A DNA stretch of 64,000 bases from the IMG/VR virus record IMGVR_UViG_3300032298_001038, positions 1-64,000 of that record. One strand, 5' to 3'. Position 1 is the stretch's first letter, and each line of letters starts with the position of its first letter. Of this stretch, positions 18,001 to 62,323 are shown one piece after another. Position numbers and translations under genes: made by a program. The notes beneath the pieces are model-generated. The model did no database searches. It was given only the letters and a program-made list of their open reading frames with translations, and was not told the DNA's origin. The DNA is from a virus.

Positions 18001-19941
18001 TTACAGTGTTCTTGGCTCGGAGCCTAGCGGACTTGCGGGGGTTTGAAAGGCTTTTTGGGGGTTAGATTCAGTTTTCCACCCACTTGTCGCGCCAGAAACG
18101 CCAAATTGCTCGCCCCGCGCGAGCGCAGGCACGTAACTGCTACCTTCGGTATCGCTCTTCAACCCGCGGTGAACACTGTTTAAAAATCCACGTTCTTGAT
18201 ACGACCCCAGCATACGCGTCATCCAGTCAGGATCGTTTGAAATGTTGGCCATGCCGCGCACCATCTCGGACTCGAAGGGCGGCGGCTCTTTATGGGCCTG
18301 AATATTGTTTATGCCGTACTTTTTCAAGTTGTCCGCGACGCTTTTAGTTATTTTTGTGCCGATCGAATAGTGCAAGACCGGTTCTTCCAGATAATGATTC
18401 ATAAGCGTATTCGGCGCAGATGCCACAGCGCCCGAACGCGGCTTCCACGACCGTTCCAGCATTGAATATGGAATAACGTCGTCTGGGGCGTAGTCGCCGT
18501 ATTCGTCGTTCAGCCTGACGTGGTTGATCAGCCCGCGCGCCACTAGTTCGATGTTACGCCGGTGGGCTGTGATGCCGGAATTACCAAGCACTTGCCGCAT
18601 GGCTTGCACGAAGTACTTACGCCCTTCACCGACGCCTTTGTGTTTAACAATCTCGGCGGGGTTGGGCATGCCGTCTGACAGTACGTCGCCGGCTTCCAGT
18701 GCGTCGCCTTTCTTGACGCTCACTTGTCGGTCTGCCGGGACGTAGTGATCTTCACCGTCAACGGTGACGTAAAAGCCGCCCTGCGCGGCTGGGCGAATTT
18801 CTTGCACGCGGCCTTCGCGCTGCGTGTGCGTAGCGCCGTCGGGGTAACGTCGTGGAACTTGCACAAGCGCGTTAATAGCCTTGAAGCCGCCAATCGACTT
18901 TGCCCCGCCTACGCCACCCGAGTGCTTCGACGACAACTGCGACTGCGACACCGGCTCAGACAGCGCTTGCGCAGCCGCAATGCCGACGTAATCACCAACG
19001 GGTGGCACGCGGCCCTTTTCGCGATAGCCGACGTCTTTCGCGTATACGCCGCCATCCTCCGGACCGCCGACCAGCGGACTGCGCACTAAAATATCTTTAA
19101 CGCCCATCGCCTTGATGTCTTTGAGAATTTTGGGCGTGAGTACCGTGTTGCGCTTGTACGGGCCGACAGGTCGCGCCAAAAACGACCCTTCGTTATCCGG
19201 GTCGTCAACGTCGGACGGCAGGCCGCGGTTGTGCGCCGTTACCAGCCGCGCTTCGTCATCGTCGTCATCCGCGGTGACAAGGAGGCGGTGCGCCATCTGC
19301 GTAAGTTGCTTGCCATAAAAACCGGCGTCAGCGGTGGCGGTCTTCACGTCAATCACGCCCTTACGCGTACCGAACGATGCCGCGAAGTATTCAGCCGGCG
19401 TCAAGCCGCGACTGTAACTCCGCAGCACCGGCAGCGGGATTGGGTTATCACGATGGTCGACATATTGCATGTCAGCGCCAATCAGCGAGTTCAACATAAA
19501 CTTGTTGCCCGTGGCGCCGGCCAGCACTTGGTGCGCAAGCGGGTTGTTGGCGTCGCGAGCCTCGTTAAACACGTCTTCAACAAGTTTCTGCTGCGTTTCA
19601 GCCGCAAGTTTCAGAATTTTTAACTCGCGCTCTTTGTCCGAGAGGTTAGTGTCCGCAAGAATTTGACGCAGTTCTTTGCGGACTTTGATTTGCGCGTGGC
19701 GGCTCGCAAACGTCGGCCGAATGTCTTTCAGCCCCATCGACAACCCACCCGTGGTGTACGCCACGTCGCGGGAAACATCGTGAATCTTCTTCATCACCTC
19801 GCGGTACCGGTCAGGGTATTTTTTTGCTAGATCGGTGGCCAACGCGCCCATAGCCTTCTTGTCCAACACGCGTTCGTAATCACGCATGTCGTCCGGAAGG
19901 GCTTCGTTGATCATTAACTGGCCAAGGGTAGTTTTTAACAC
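18001..19941 (-). CDS. rpoC: DNA-directed RNA polymerase beta' subunit, C-terminal half
   Basis: TTLGQL; bridge helix GLTPAEYF...RKGVIDVKTATADAGF; trigger loop GIAAAQALSEPVSQ...KHSGG; no Cys. Confidence 0.92.
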   Translation of the reverse strand: MLKTTLGQLMINEALPDDMRDYERVLDKKAMGALATDLAKKYPDRYREVMKKIHDVSRDVAYTTGGLSMGLKDIRPTFASRHAQIKVRKELRQILADTNLSDKERELKILKLAAETQQKLVEDVFNEARDANNPLAHQVLAGATGNKFMLNSLIGADMQYVDHRDNPIPLPVLRSYSRGLTPAEYFAASFGTRKGVIDVKTATADAGFYGKQLTQMAHRLLVTADDDDDEARLVTAHNRGLPSDVDDPDNEGSFLARPVGPYKRNTVLTPKILKDIKAMGVKDILVRSPLVGGPEDGGVYAKDVGYREKGRVPPVGDYVGIAAAQALSEPVSQSQLSSKHSGGVGGAKSIGGFKAINALVQVPRRYPDGATHTQREGRVQEIRPAAQGGFYVTVDGEDHYVPADRQVSVKKGDALEAGDVLSDGMPNPAEIVKHKGVGEGRKYFVQAMRQVLGNSGITAHRRNIELVARGLINHVRLNDEYGDYAPDDVIPYSMLERSWKPRSGAVASAPNTLMNHYLEEPVLHYSIGTKITKSVADNLKKYGINNIQAHKEPPPFESEMVRGMANISNDPDWMTRMLGSYQERGFLNSVHRGLKSDTEGSSYVPALARGEQFGVSGATSGWKTESNPQKAFQTPASPLGSEPRTL

Positions 19942-60596: not shown

Positions 60597-61178
60597 TCAC
60601 AGCGTGAGCGCGGCAGCCGGGGTGCGGCTGGCCGGCGCCTCGCGCAGGCCGACGTAGGCCAGCGTGAACGCGAGCGCCGCGATGACCGCGATCCACAGCA
60701 TGCCGACCACGCTGGCGCTGCCCGGCGCACCGGTGCAGACCCAAGCGCCGCCGCCGATGCTCACGTACTCGTTGCCACTGAGCGTGGCGGTCGAGTACAG
60801 GAACCCGGGCTGCACGTCAGCACCCACGGTGCGAACGATCACCGCGTCGCTGGTGGCGCCGAGGACACCACCGTCACGGCTGTCCCACGCCACGTTGGAC
60901 GTGGTGAACTCCGAGGCCGGCGGGGCGACGACCGCCACCACACCAGCCAGCGCCACGAAGGCAACGACCGGGGTGACGATGGACGCCACGATCCGAGGGC
61001 TGCGCTTCGGGGTGCTGCGGAGCGTGTTCGCCGCGGCGTCGCCCGCCGTGTTGAACACCTTGACGACCTGCTCCTTGGTCGTACCCGCCTTGACGACGTT
61101 CTCGACCTTGTTGAACAGGTGCGAGACGCCGTACAGGATAACCGCGGCGGTGGCGGCGAGGGCAATGTAACTGATCAT
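60597..61178 (-). CDS. Early three-TM protein
   Basis: Hydrophobic helices; SD AAGGAG inside a hairpin. Confidence 0.65.
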   Translation of the reverse strand: MISYIALAATAAVILYGVSHLFNKVENVVKAGTTKEQVVKVFNTAGDAAANTLRSTPKRSPRIVASIVTPVVAFVALAGVVAVVAPPASEFTTSNVAWDSRDGGVLGATSDAVIVRTVGADVQPGFLYSTATLSGNEYVSIGGGAWVCTGAPGSASVVGMLWIAVIAALAFTLAYVGLREAPASRTPAAALTL

Positions 61179-61255
61179 AGAACTGACTCCTTCGAAGGAG
61201 GACTACCAACCAGCCACAGAAACGGTGTGGCGCCGTCGCCCCGCGACAGGGCAAG

Positions 61256-61327
61256 TCTGTTCCTCACGAGTTGAACGTGAGACCACCGGAGATGTGGGGT
61301 GGTGGTTGCCGCCTACGGCAGAACAGA
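61256..61327 (-). ncRNA. 72-nt tRNA-like perfect four-way junction in promoter-proximal leader
   Basis: 7-bp closing stem, three hairpins, T-loop TTCAACT, no canonical anticodon loop. Confidence 0.7.
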
Positions 61328-61360
61328 TGCTGGTTTCACTGCTAACCAGCGGAACACTAG

Positions 61361-61388
61361 ATATGCCCTGTTTTGACCCGGTATTTAG
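61361..61388 (-). promoter_or_regulatory. Promoter-like motif CTAAATA-N15-GCATAT
   Basis: Exact; embedded in an 11-bp inverted repeat. Confidence 0.8.
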
Positions 61389-61412
61389 CCGGCAGGGCAT
61401 ATCGGGCGTATA

Positions 61413-61577
61413 TCACAGGCCCGAGAGGCCCATGTACACGCCGTAGGCAAAGCAGGCGCAGATGTAAGCGCCCACCGCAACCATCACACACAATGCGATG
61501 TTGCGGACCGTCCGAGTGACGAAGCGGACGGGGAGAACAAGGCCGTAGTAGAGAGCGGCGCAGAAAGCATAGGTCAT
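61413..61577 (-). CDS. 54-aa two-TM peptide (not in ORF track)
   Basis: SD AAGGGTGA; own promoter at 61678. Confidence 0.55.
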   Translation of the reverse strand: MTYAFCAALYYGLVLPVRFVTRTVRNIALCVMVAVGAYICACFAYGVYMGLSGL

Positions 61578-61677
61578 GGCTTCACCCTTTCAAGGTGACT
61601 ATCTGTGTGTCCCGCATGCAAAGTGCGCACTTTGCTGGTGCCCGGTACGCCCACAGATAACTAGACGCCCGTACTTA

Positions 61678-61780: not shown

Positions 61781-62227
61781 TCACCAGTCGCCGCCGTAGG
61801 CTTTTTCGCTGGCGGCGTACTCGTCGTCGCTCTCGTCGCTCTCGTCGCTCTCGTCGTCGACGAACTCCGCCATCGCAGCGCGGTGTGAGTCGCGGTCGTA
61901 CTCGATGGACTTGTTCCACCGAGCAGAGGACTGCGCCGCGTGATCGCGTGCTGTGCTTTGCACCCGATATACGAGACCCGACAACTCCGGCAGCGCAGCG
62001 TCGAAGAACGCCTGCACGCCGCTGGAGAGCCGGGTCAGGACGTAAACCGGCACGACGACGACCGCGAAGGCGGCCGACATCCAACAGAACTGGAAGGCGT
62101 TGTGGAGCCGGCGGCCGAGCCGCTTCCAGTCCTTTGTCCTCACCATCATGAGGGCCGTCCACACGACACACATGATGACGCCGGTGACAGCGGCGATACC
62201 GTAGAAGAACATTTGCTCAGTGGTCAT
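61781..62227 (-). CDS. Early membrane protein with acidic tail
   Basis: Start MTTEQ, SD AAGGAG; two TM helices; DDESDESDESDD tail. Confidence 0.65.
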   Translation of the reverse strand: MTTEQMFFYGIAAVTGVIMCVVWTALMMVRTKDWKRLGRRLHNAFQFCWMSAAFAVVVVPVYVLTRLSSGVQAFFDAALPELSGLVYRVQSTARDHAAQSSARWNKSIEYDRDSHRAAMAEFVDDESDESDESDDEYAASEKAYGGDW

Positions 62228-62323
62228 CTCTCTGCTCCTTACCCCGTGTTGCTGGTGGCTGAAGTTAGCCGCGGCGTACGTTCCGCACAGTCCAACGCGC
62301 AACAGATAATTGGACTGCATTAG

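What the first reader, a model, noticed from the sequence alone, without database searches (positions are those of the whole stretch)
61185..61355. tRNA-like perfect four-way junction in a promoter-driven leader that also hides the SD
Seen (minus, 61327-61256): TCTGTTC TGCCG-TAGG-CGGCA ACCACC-ACCCCACATCTCC-GGTGGT CTCACG-TTCAACT-CGTGAG GAACAGA. This is 72 nt with no unpaired junction bases, a consensus T-loop closed by G-C, a GG in the D-like loop, 13 bp of acceptor plus T-stem, a 13-nt C-rich loop in place of an anticodon, and no CCA. It is flanked by three more hairpins, and the SD of ORF 61178 lies inside the palindrome CTCCTTCGAAGGAG. Established: D/T-loop elbow mimicry occurs in tmRNA, bacterial Y RNAs and viral tRNA-like structures. 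Inference: a tRNA mimic (decoy for tRNA-targeting defence, or substrate for RNase P/Z) or a translational switch whose TCTCC loop could pair with the SD.
Basis: partly seen in the sequence, partly recalled or inferred. Interest (0 to 1): 0.8.

Follow-up and report, generated by a model that had tools for sequence, protein, structure and literature searches.

The report
tRNA-shaped module in phage leader RNA
A 198-kb uncultured freshwater phage and its relatives carry, in the untranslated leader of one small membrane-protein gene, a conserved folded RNA whose core resembles the top half of a tRNA, with an unchanging C-rich loop where the anticodon would be; it is a real RNA that matches no catalogued family, possibly cut by the host's tRNA-trimming enzymes, and its function is untested.

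Summary
The 72-nt four-way junction at 61327-61256 (minus strand) is the minimum-free-energy fold (-30.4 kcal/mol, z -4.3).

Five diverged relatives have a homologous element at the same place. All come from metagenome contigs that encode homologues of the downstream 193-aa membrane protein.
- Each relative folds on its own into the same topology.
- In the 7-bp closing stem and the 5-bp T-like stem, 72 of 72 cells are canonical pairs, and 9 of 12 pairs changed on both sides.
- Across the whole roughly 180-nt leader, 14 pairs are compensatory (0 of 500 shuffles reach this).

Conserved features:
- the 7+5-bp stack (7+6 in the window);
- a 7-nt U-N-C-R-A-Y-U loop closed by G-C;
- an invariant single-stranded CCCACAUCUC loop;
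- no CCA;
- N73 followed by UU, as in the phage's own CCA-less tRNA genes.

Features specific to the window: the linker-free junction, the GG-bearing first arm and the hairpin that locks the SD.

It is not a tRNA: ARAGORN does not call it and Rfam has no match.

Best reading (confidence about 0.4): a new cis-acting leader RNA whose tRNA-like module is recognised, and probably cut, by host RNase P and RNase Z. No RNA data exist.

The parts
61361..61388 (-). Phage promoter-like motif: CTAAATA at 61388-61382, a 15-nt spacer, then GCATAT at 61366-61361. The inferred transcription start is a few nt downstream, about 61358-61352.
   Evidence: The motif recurs about 12 times on the coding strand upstream of genes in this genome. 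It is conserved upstream of the leader in all six family members. Natural variants differ at 61359/61360 just after it. The transcription start is inferred, not mapped.
61329..61350 (-). 5'-proximal hairpin P1: a 7-bp stem and an 8-nt loop. The motif GGUUAGCA spans the stem's 3' edge and the loop.
   Evidence: The inner stem covaries in the relatives (helix 2: 96% of cells paired, 2 pairs changed on both sides). The motif is kept even in L091, which lacks the core module.
61256..61327 (-). Core four-way junction (tRNA-shaped module). Closing stem 61327-61321 pairs with 61262-61256. Arm 1 is 61320-61307. Arm 2 is 61306-61282. Arm 3 is 61281-61263.
Evidence: Homologues at the syntenic site in L085-L090 and L092 each fold to the same topology. 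72 of 72 canonical cells and 9 of 12 covarying pairs in the closing and T-like stems. Only one natural variant change falls in these 72 nt: 61327, the terminal pair.
61288..61300 (-). 13-nt apical loop of arm 2 with the invariant core CCCACAUCUC.
   Evidence: The core is identical in all six versions while the supporting stem is entirely different in sequence. Predicted unpaired probability is 0.93-1.00 in full-leader ensembles. No conserved pairing partner was found.
61269..61275 (-). 7-nt T-loop-like loop of arm 3 (UUCAACU), closed by G-C.
   Evidence: The family pattern is U-N-C-R-A-Y-U with an invariant G-C closing pair. Position 2 varies (U, C or G). Outside the tRNA and tmRNA genes, only one other hairpin of this kind exists in the 198-kb genome.
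61253..61255 (-). Discriminator-like base (C) plus UU directly after the closing stem. There is no CCA.
   Evidence: N73-UU occurs in 6 of 6 versions and UUG in 5 of 6. The same trailer is found in 6 of 9 (UU) and 4 of 9 (UUG) of the phage's CCA-less tRNA genes, against background frequencies of 0.057 and 0.017.
61238..61252 (-). Hairpin P5: a 6-bp stem and a 3-nt loop.
   Evidence: Helix 6: 100% of cells paired and 2 pairs changed on both sides. Natural variants change only the linker after it, 61235-61237.
61213..61231 (-). Hairpin P6: a 6-bp stem and a 7-nt U-rich loop. It is preceded by a conserved single-stranded ACGGCGCC.
   Evidence: helix 7: 94.7% paired. The natural variants at 61219 and 61223 fall in its loop. 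The conservation island in the metagenome variants ends at 61213.
61187..61200 (-). 14-nt palindrome containing the SD (AAGGAG). This SD lock is specific to the window.
   Evidence: P(SD unpaired) is 0.10 here and 0.26-0.49 in the relatives. The X3 variant keeps a G.U-tolerant version of it.
60597..61178 (-). Downstream gene: a 193-aa protein with three hydrophobic segments (about 1-23, 60-92 and 150-181). It belongs to no Pfam or PHROG family.
   Evidence: It has 10 homologues at 36-59% identity in metagenomes. The nine loci with a called upstream neighbour have a 210-343-nt gap (230-246 nt in six) after it, and in six that neighbour is a small 54-58-aa gene.

Best explanation
The stretch is the roughly 180-nt 5' leader of a phage gene for a small membrane protein, and it is a conserved, structured RNA of an undescribed family.

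Transcription starts at a phage-specific promoter motif. The RNA then folds into a 5'-terminal hairpin, a four-way-junction core, two further hairpins and the SD.

The core imitates the acceptor/T-arm half of a tRNA:
- a 7-bp closing stem stacked on a 5-bp arm (6 bp in the window);
- a T-loop-type heptaloop closed by G-C on that arm;
- no CCA;
- a non-C UU trailer like that of the phage's own CCA-less tRNA genes.
The anticodon arm is replaced by a longer helix that presents an invariant, single-stranded C-rich loop.

Most likely mechanism (inferred, not shown): the host's tRNA-end enzymes recognise the module. RNase P would cut at its 5' edge, and RNase Z or an equivalent enzyme would cut after the discriminator-like base. 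This would sever the gene's mRNA from the promoter-proximal hairpin, or from the upstream cistron in read-through transcripts. That would set the mRNA's stability and translation. It would also release a 72-82-nt tRNA-shaped RNA that displays the invariant loop.

Shown: the structure, its conservation and covariation, strand specificity, the tRNA-like dimensions and the trailer resemblance.
Inferred: transcription from the motif, cleavage by RNase P/Z, and any effect on expression.
For: - Fold: the MFE equals the four-way junction, z = -4.26.
- Homologues: they lie at the same position, about 80 nt before the start codon, upstream of diverged homologues of the same gene (36-59% protein identity).
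- Independent folding: each of the six versions folds alone into the same topology, z = -3 to -5.
- Pairing: 72 of 72 canonical cells. 9 of 12 pairs changed on both sides in the closing and T-like stems. The G.U intermediates are valid only on the gene strand.
- Whole leader: 92.5% of cells paired against 31-47% for slid partners. 14 compensatory pairs against 2-5 slid and 6.2 shuffled, with 0 of 500 shuffles as high.
- Natural variation: freshwater metagenome variants keep 61213-61402 at about 96-98% identity, while the flanking coding DNA falls below 80%. Their changes fall in loops and linkers.
- tRNA-like dimensions: the 7+5 = 12-bp stack is kept in 5 of 6 versions. The G-C-closed U-N-C-R-A-Y-U loop is kept in all.
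- Trailer: N73-UU(G) matches the phage's CCA-less tRNA genes.
- Host enzymes: the phage has no Pfam hit to the CCA-adding enzyme family or the RNase Z-type fold, so host enzymes must process its tRNAs.
- Precedent: RNase P cuts the P1/P7 C4 RNA out of a larger transcript and also cleaves some mRNAs (PMC5320573, PMC11143913). RNase Z cuts after any discriminator unless C follows (PMC7479834).
Against: - No RNA data. The only metatranscriptome contig laid does not cover the module, so transcription, ends and cleavage are all unshown.
- tRNA profiles do not recognise it: ARAGORN default gives no call, and Rfam shows nothing at E <= 10 even in a 201-nt search space.
- The tRNA core that builds the elbow is missing or not conserved. 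The window has no 8/9, 26 or variable-loop linkers, the first arm differs in every subtype, and loop position 55 is not fixed.
- The window's stack is 13 bp, not 12.
- The invariance of the C-rich loop is not explained by a pure processing signal.
- One relative (L091) lacks the module altogether.
Confidence: 0.4

Rival explanations
1. It is an uncleaved regulatory platform. The leader folds into a rigid scaffold whose purpose is to present the invariant C-rich loop, and perhaps the T-loop as a tertiary docking motif. A trans-acting factor binds there, such as a phage or host RNA-binding protein or the 30S subunit/S1 at a standby site. That factor tunes translation or stability of the membrane-protein mRNA. 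The tRNA likeness is convergent architecture.
For: - The loop core is invariant while its stem is completely replaced, and the loop is always unpaired.
- Several other single-stranded segments are also conserved: GGUUAGCA, ACGGCGCC and the U-rich P6 loop.
- T-loops are general tertiary modules (established knowledge).
- tRNA profiles do not match.
- This phage clade has other structured leaders (notes, not tested here).
Against: - No candidate binding protein was identified.
- It does not explain the 12-bp stack, the absence of CCA, or the tRNA-like UU(G) trailer.
- A standby site would not need an invariant sequence.
Confidence: 0.28
2. It is a translational switch that works by anti-SD pairing. 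The CUCC at the 3' end of the invariant loop, or a local palindrome, pairs with the AGGAG SD. The multi-helix leader acts as a thermometer or a co-transcriptional switch that opens the RBS.
For: - The loop contains CUCC, and every version has an AGGAG-type SD 7-10 nt before the start codon.
- In the window the SD is strongly paired (P unpaired 0.10) in a 14-nt palindrome.
- L090 has a different palindrome over its SD.
- L089 and L092 have a GAUGU...GGGG segment upstream of the SD that complements the loop.
Against: - Loop-SD pairing is only 4 bp, with no conserved extension.
- SD sequestration is weak in four of the five relatives (0.31-0.49) and 0.26 in L092, and it is achieved by non-homologous means.
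- The complementary upstream segment is absent from the window and L090.
- An anti-SD needs about 5 nt, not an invariant 10-nt core.
Confidence: 0.1
3. It is an anti-defence tRNA decoy. The module mimics a tRNA to soak up a host tRNA-targeting defence, such as an anticodon nuclease or an acceptor-end toxin, or another tRNA-binding host factor.
For: - tRNA-like acceptor/T-arm geometry.
- The phage invests in tRNA biology, with 10 tRNAs, a tmRNA and a second tRNA look-alike near the tmRNA (note).
Against: - Nothing mimics a 7-nt anticodon loop or any specific tRNA identity set. The loop is 10-14 nt and C-rich.
- There is no CCA end for acceptor-end toxins.
- It is embedded in one gene's leader rather than expressed as an abundant stand-alone RNA.
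- The discriminator base is not fixed.
Confidence: 0.05
4. It is a relic with no function of its own: a decayed phage tRNA gene, an attP-type fragment of a host tRNA gene, or a chance GC-rich fold.
For: - The T-arm-like sequence and 72-nt size recall a tRNA.
- ARAGORN calls it at a 90% threshold.
Against: - Decay would break stems. Instead all stems are maintained by compensatory changes across versions whose proteins share only 36-59% identity.
- The 5' strand covaries with the 3' strand, which an attP core would not need.
- The leader is better conserved than the flanking genes.
- 0 of 200 shuffles fold as well.
- The relaxed ARAGORN threshold gives 8 spurious calls genome-wide.
Confidence: 0.03

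Closest known systems
C4 antisense RNA of phages P1/P7 (Rfam RF01695)
   Same: It is a phage RNA of about 77 nt made as part of a larger transcript. Host RNase P cuts it at the 5' end of its closing stem. Its single-stranded apical loops then pair with the mRNA, one of them over the ribosome-binding site (PMC5320573; PMC11143913). It resembles this element in size, in being embedded in a transcript, and in the logic of a closed stem plus functional loops.
   Different: - The C4 model does not match, even at E <= 10.
- C4 has three stem-loops, not a four-way junction with a T-loop-type arm.
- C4 loops vary to set target specificity, whereas here the loop is invariant and no conserved target was found.
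- Cleavage is shown for C4 and not here.
Canonical tRNA (RF00005), including this phage's own CCA-less tRNA genes
   Same: - A 7-bp closing stem.
- A 5-bp arm with a 7-nt loop that keeps U54, C56, R57 and A58 and the G53-C61 closing pair.
- A 12-bp coaxial stack.
- 72-82 nt overall.
- No encoded CCA, and a UU(G) trailer like the phage tRNAs.
   Different: - No anticodon loop; the loop is 10-14 nt and C-rich.
- No conserved D arm or G18G19.
- No 8/9, 26 or variable-loop linkers in the window.
- Position 55 is variable.
- ARAGORN and the Rfam tRNA model do not recognise it.
- It sits inside an mRNA leader.
tmRNA tRNA-like domain and tag-less TLD-only RNAs
   Same: The acceptor stem and T arm are retained, while the anticodon arm is replaced by a long helix. 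In the 82-nt relatives the D region can be an unpaired stretch, like the tmRNA D-loop analogue. The same genome holds a tmRNA and another tRNA look-alike (note).
   Different: - No G3.U70 alanine identity pair; positions 3-70 are U-A or C-G.
- No CCA.
- No Rfam tmRNA match.
- It is not a stand-alone gene.
tRNA-like processing signals inside long transcripts: MALAT1 mascRNA, and RNase P-cleaved bacterial polycistronic mRNAs
   Same: The concept is the same. A tRNA-shaped fold inside a longer RNA recruits RNase P, and RNase Z for mascRNA, to define the ends of the flanking RNA and release a small RNA (PMC8457004; PMC11143913 citing Li and Altman 2003 and Alifano 1994).
   Different: - mascRNA is eukaryotic and defines a 3' end.
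- The bacterial mRNA sites are not conserved cloverleaf-like modules.
- Here the module lies in a phage 5' leader and carries an invariant loop.
- Cleavage is untested.

Membership tests
tRNA gene (RF00005) | Recognised by tRNA detectors or covariance models. | tested here: not met
   ARAGORN at default settings gives no call in the window or in any relative. Rfam shows no tRNA hit at E <= 10 in 4 kb, in a 201-nt search, or in five relatives' loci. The ARAGORN 90% threshold call uses a forced, different fold and is one of 8 extra calls genome-wide.
tRNA gene (RF00005) | A 7-bp acceptor stem and a 5-bp T stem with a 7-nt T loop (T54-Psi55-C56-R57-A58, G53-C61). | tested here: inconclusive
   The 7-bp stem and the G-C-closed 7-nt loop with U1, C3, R4 and A5 are kept in 6 of 6 versions. 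The T stem is 5 bp in the five relatives and 6 bp in the window. The position equivalent to the near-invariant Psi55 is U, C or G.
tRNA gene (RF00005) | A 7-nt anticodon loop on a 5-bp stem, a D arm with G18G19, and linker nucleotides 8, 9, 26 and 44-48. | tested here: not met
   The loop is 10-14 nt on a 6-13-bp stem. The first arm differs in every subtype. The window has no junction nucleotides at all.
tRNA-like substrates of RNase P / RNase Z (functional class) | A coaxial acceptor/T stack of 12 bp ending in a T-loop elbow. | tested here: inconclusive
   The stack is 7+5 = 12 bp in 5 of 6 versions and 7+6 = 13 in the window. One natural window variant loses the terminal pair. Whether an elbow forms cannot be judged from sequence.
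tRNA-like substrates of RNase P / RNase Z (functional class) | A 3' side compatible with RNase Z: an unpaired base after the stem, not followed by C or CCA. | tested here: met
   N73 (C or U) is followed by UU in 6 of 6 versions, the same trailer as most of the phage's CCA-less tRNA genes. The rule is taken from PMC7479834.
tRNA-like substrates of RNase P / RNase Z (functional class) | Actual endonucleolytic cleavage at the module's borders. | not testable with these tools
   No RNA run covers the module. The one RNA contig laid covers only 61370-61402 and 61570-61628.
C4 antisense RNA (RF01695) | A match to the family model, and loops complementary to sites in the regulated mRNA. | tested here: not met
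   No Rfam hit. No conserved complementarity between the loop and the leader/RBS or the genome was found.
SD-sequestering riboregulator / RNA thermometer | The SD is paired by a conserved anti-SD element. | tested here: not met
   The SD is strongly paired only in the window (P unpaired 0.10). The relatives show 0.26-0.49 with non-homologous partners.
tmRNA tRNA-like domain | A G3.U70 pair, a 3' CCA, and pairing of the 5' and 3' ends of a stand-alone RNA. | tested here: not met
   Pair 3-70 is U-A or C-G. There is no CCA. ARAGORN's tmRNA search finds only the genuine tmRNA at 67248-67602.

The most novel reading that the evidence does not exclude
Host RNase P and RNase Z excise the module, and it may then receive a CCA tail. 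This would give a stable 72-82-nt tRNA-shaped small RNA born from an mRNA leader. Its invariant C-rich loop would then act in trans, for example on the ribosome or an SD-like sequence, or on a host tRNA-binding or defence protein. One promoter would thus deliver both a membrane protein and a tRNA-mimicking effector RNA.
Probability: 0.15. Interest if true: 0.8.

Novelty: new variant of a known kind. Interest (0 to 1): 0.55.

Why it matters
Few tRNA-shaped modules inside bacterial or phage mRNAs are known. The best-studied case, C4 of P1/P7, shows that such a fold can couple RNase P processing to gene control.

This element is a covariation-supported family that matches no Rfam model. It combines a tRNA acceptor/T-arm mimic with an invariant loop, in the leader of a conserved gene of uncultured jumbo-type freshwater phages.

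If it is processed, it would show that phages use the host tRNA-maturation machinery to punctuate their mRNAs or to make tRNA-like small RNAs. If it is not processed, it is a new protein-binding or ribosome-binding leader.

Either way it is a compact, testable RNA with clear mutational targets: the stack length, the T-like loop and the C-rich loop.

Tried and rejected
- DNA similarity to GenBank phages, near and distant modes: no match.
- Protein-seeded scans of IMG/VR and JGI metagenomes for the downstream gene: no relatives.
- Pattern scans of IMG/VR, three patterns: no hits.
- Pattern scan of prokaryote genomes: 19 hits in unrelated taxa, none confirmed by the structure model. Treated as chance.
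- Metagenome 20-mer scan: one hit, L084. It shares the T-like hairpin inside a 7-bp stem but has none of the other hallmarks, so it is not counted as a member.
- Single-sequence covariance model: no second copy in the genome and none in four related roughly 200-kb phage records.
- Iterating the covariance model failed. Reverse-strand hits of the near-palindromic hairpins contaminated A6, and Infernal aligned the middle arms inconsistently in A8. Pair counts therefore rest on a helix-anchored manual count and on the MAFFT alignment A7.
- MAFFT alignment A5 of the cores put a gap inside L092's closing stem and was not used.
- Contigs of four further protein homologues (P0002, P0004, P0007, P0011) could not be read because no DNA is served.
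- RNA evidence: the single metatranscriptome run has a 256-nt contig of a variant that does not cover the module. It says nothing about transcription.
- Search for a pairing partner of the invariant loop in the leader and the genome: nothing conserved.
- The idea that most phage tRNAs share the element's U1-A72 pair was dropped. ARAGORN had added a U(-1)-A73 pair to normal G1-C72 stems, and only tRNA-Asn and tRNA-Gln truly have U1-A72.
- The idea that G-[UNCRAYU]-C hairpins are a general leader motif was rejected. There are only two outside the tRNA and tmRNA genes.
- ESM Atlas look-up of the 193-aa protein: nothing usable.

Full report
**What the window is.** The window is the first 64 kb of a complete 198,312-bp viral record with direct terminal repeats.
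- It encodes a multisubunit RNA polymerase (Pfam RNA_pol_Rpb1_5 in ORF 18001-19941). The closest GenBank match, at about 25% identity, is Salmonella phage Arash.
- It has ten tRNA genes and a tmRNA.
- Neither the region nor the genome has a nucleotide relative among GenBank phages.

- RNAfold returns the described structure as both MFE and centroid: four helices with no unpaired junction base, -30.4 kcal/mol. The z-score is -4.26 against dinucleotide shuffles, and 0 of 200 shuffles fold as well.
- The fold is unchanged in a 251-nt context.
- It is flanked by one hairpin upstream (61350-61329) and two downstream (61252-61238 and 61231-61213). The SD lies in a 14-nt palindrome (61200-61187).

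**It is promoter-proximal.**
- A bipartite motif, CTAAATA-N15-GCATAT, ends 33 nt upstream of the junction.
- The motif recurs about a dozen times in this genome, always on the coding strand in front of genes and often just after a terminator-like hairpin.
- First-stage notes on the same genome list the same motif. I re-derived it independently.
- There is no terminator between the upstream 54-aa ORF and this promoter. The leader may therefore also be an intercistronic spacer in read-through transcripts.

**It is not a tRNA by profile.**
- ARAGORN at default settings does not call it.
- At a 90% threshold ARAGORN calls a 'tRNA-???' with a four-base anticodon and a forced, different fold. That threshold gives eight extra calls across the genome.
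- Rfam 15 shows no tRNA, tmRNA, C4, T-box or other plausible family at E <= 10. This holds in 4 kb, in a 201-nt search, and in the relatives' loci.

**Finding relatives.**
- The downstream protein has 193 aa and three hydrophobic segments, and it matches no Pfam or PHROG family.
- It has no relatives in IMG/VR or JGI contigs by pattern-seeded search.
- The large protein collections hold ten homologues at 36-59% identity.
- Nine of the ten loci show a called upstream gene, followed by a non-coding gap of 210-343 nt (230-246 nt in six of them) and then the gene; in six the upstream neighbour is a small 54-58-aa gene.
- DNA could be read for five distinct versions with the module: L085, L088, L089, L090 and L092.
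- A single-sequence covariance model of the window's junction hits the syntenic position in them, about 80 nt before the start codon.

**The structure is conserved by compensation.**
- Each of the six versions (72, 73 or 82 nt) folds on its own into the same topology (z = -3 to -5):
  - a 7-bp closing stem;
  - a small, variable first arm;
  - a long second arm with a 10-14-nt loop;
  - a third arm of 5 bp (6 in the window) with a 7-nt loop.
- I counted pairs on helix-anchored positions. In the closing stem and third arm, 72 of 72 cells are canonical pairs, and 9 of 12 pairs changed on both sides. The G.U intermediates would be A.C mismatches on the other strand, so selection acts on the RNA of the gene strand.
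- RNAalifold on an independent MAFFT alignment of the whole leaders recovers the same architecture with 14 compensatory pairs.
- The pair-count tool gives 92.5% paired cells, against 31-47% for slid partners. It gives 14 compensatory pairs, against 2-5 slid and 6.2 +/- 1.8 shuffled, with 0 of 500 shuffles as high. This holds although two rows are misaligned in the closing stem.

**Natural variation.**
- Contigs from three freshwater metagenomes match 61213-61402 at about 96-98% identity.
- The coding DNA downstream, and in one variant part of the small upstream ORF as well, has diverged below the 80% laying threshold.
- Within 61213-61355 the differences fall in loops and linkers. The only change in the 72-nt core breaks the terminal pair.

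**What is conserved in the core.**
- The 7-bp closing stem.
- A 12-bp stack with the third arm in five of six versions (13 bp in the window).
- The loop pattern U-N-C-R-A-Y-U, closed by G-C.
- The loop core CCCACAUCUC, which is invariant. Its stem is completely different in the three subtypes, and it is predicted unpaired in all of them.
- The absence of CCA.
- An unpaired base followed by UU after the stem.

**What is not conserved.**
- The linker-free junction.
- The first arm. It is a 5-bp hairpin with loop UAGG in the window, CCC-GAA-GGG in L092, and 9 nt in the 82-nt versions. In the 82-nt versions the arm can be unpaired or form a 4-bp hairpin, an alternative fold 1-5 kcal/mol above the MFE.
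- The second position of the T-like loop.
- The SD lock. P(unpaired) is 0.10 in the window and 0.26-0.49 elsewhere.
- One relative, L091, keeps the promoter and the start of the first hairpin but lacks the module.

**Clues to mechanism.**
- Nine of the phage's ten tRNA genes lack CCA. Six of the nine have UU at positions 74-75 and four have UUG, against background frequencies of 0.057 and 0.017.
- The element has UU in all six versions and UUG in five. The window's seven trailer bases are identical to those of the phage's tRNA-Thr.
- The phage has no Pfam match to the CCA-adding enzyme family or the RNase Z-type fold, so host enzymes must mature its tRNAs.
- RNase Z cuts after the discriminator whatever its identity, unless cytidines follow (PMC7479834).
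- RNase P recognises the acceptor/T stack. It is known to cut the P1/P7 C4 RNA out of a larger transcript and to cleave some mRNAs (PMC5320573, PMC11143913).
- These facts make the module a credible substrate, but nothing here shows cleavage.
- I found no conserved pairing partner for the invariant loop in the leader, at the RBS or elsewhere in the genome. Its pairing to the SD is limited to 4 bp.
- G-C-closed T-loop-like hairpins are not a general leader motif. The only other one outside the tRNA and tmRNA genes lies in the tRNA look-alike near the tmRNA.

**Verdict.**
- The finding is a genuine, conserved, structured leader RNA that matches no Rfam family. The scan read the same stretch a second time from an overlapping window, but no look-alike on other DNA was on record.
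- The tRNA resemblance is real but partial: it covers the acceptor/T-arm half and the 3' trailer only.
- I favour a processing module read by host RNase P/Z (about 0.4).
- Next is an uncleaved protein-binding or ribosome-binding platform (about 0.28).
- Then an anti-SD switch (about 0.1), a defence decoy (about 0.05) and a relic (about 0.03).
- It is a new variant of a known kind, namely tRNA-like elements embedded in longer transcripts, with C4 as the nearest functional analogue.
- Known members are few, and all come from uncultured freshwater phages.

Noticed in passing
window 2318, 3490, 59864, 60485, 61388, 61705, 62351, 62828, 63132 (minus strand); genome 73211, 95085, 158918: A strict promoter-like motif, CTAAATA-N15-GCATAT, recurs on the coding strand upstream of genes. 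The three copies outside the window are followed by a shared GCACCCCC-type start, and the copy at 73211 lies upstream of the tRNA/tmRNA cluster.
   Followed up: partly
window 59864-59790 and 60485-60410 (minus strand): Two promoter copies are followed by nearly identical leaders of about 55 nt in front of different genes. This looks like a duplicated leader element.
   Followed up: no
window 62351-62318 (minus strand): The ATG of ORF 61781-62320 begins only about 4 nt after the GCATAT box. The gene may therefore be expressed from a leaderless or near-leaderless mRNA.
   Followed up: no
L002:10071-11246: In the closest 203-kb relative, the same promoter motif is followed by about 1.1 kb with no ORF longer than about 80 aa. 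This is a possible large non-coding RNA or a very diverged gene set. The cloverleaf model does not hit it.
   Followed up: partly
L084:11314-11398 (minus strand): An unrelated metagenome contig (47% GC) has an 85-nt multibranch element. Its arm is identical over 20 nt to the window's T-like hairpin and sits inside a 7-bp closing stem. It has no C-rich loop, promoter motif or UU trailer, so it is probably coincidence or a tRNA-derived repeat.
   Followed up: partly
genome 41597-155759 (tRNA genes): Nine of the ten phage tRNA genes lack an encoded CCA and mostly carry a UU(G) trailer. The genome shows no Pfam match to the CCA-adding enzyme family or the RNase Z-type fold, so tRNA maturation depends on the host.
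   Followed up: partly
window 61446-61573: In one freshwater variant (run X4), the central 126 nt of the 54-aa upstream ORF are replaced by a same-length diverged segment, while both flanks stay about 96% identical. This is a local mosaic exchange.
   Followed up: no
L091:785-1049: One relative of the downstream gene keeps the promoter and the GGUUAGCA start of the first hairpin but has a different leader without the tRNA-shaped module.
   Followed up: partly
window 61351-61356 versus 61257-61262 (minus strand): In the window and in L092, the transcript's first bases (UGUUCC) duplicate the 5' strand of the closing stem. They could pair with its 3' strand instead, giving a possible alternative conformer that is absent from the 82-nt relatives.
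   Followed up: no
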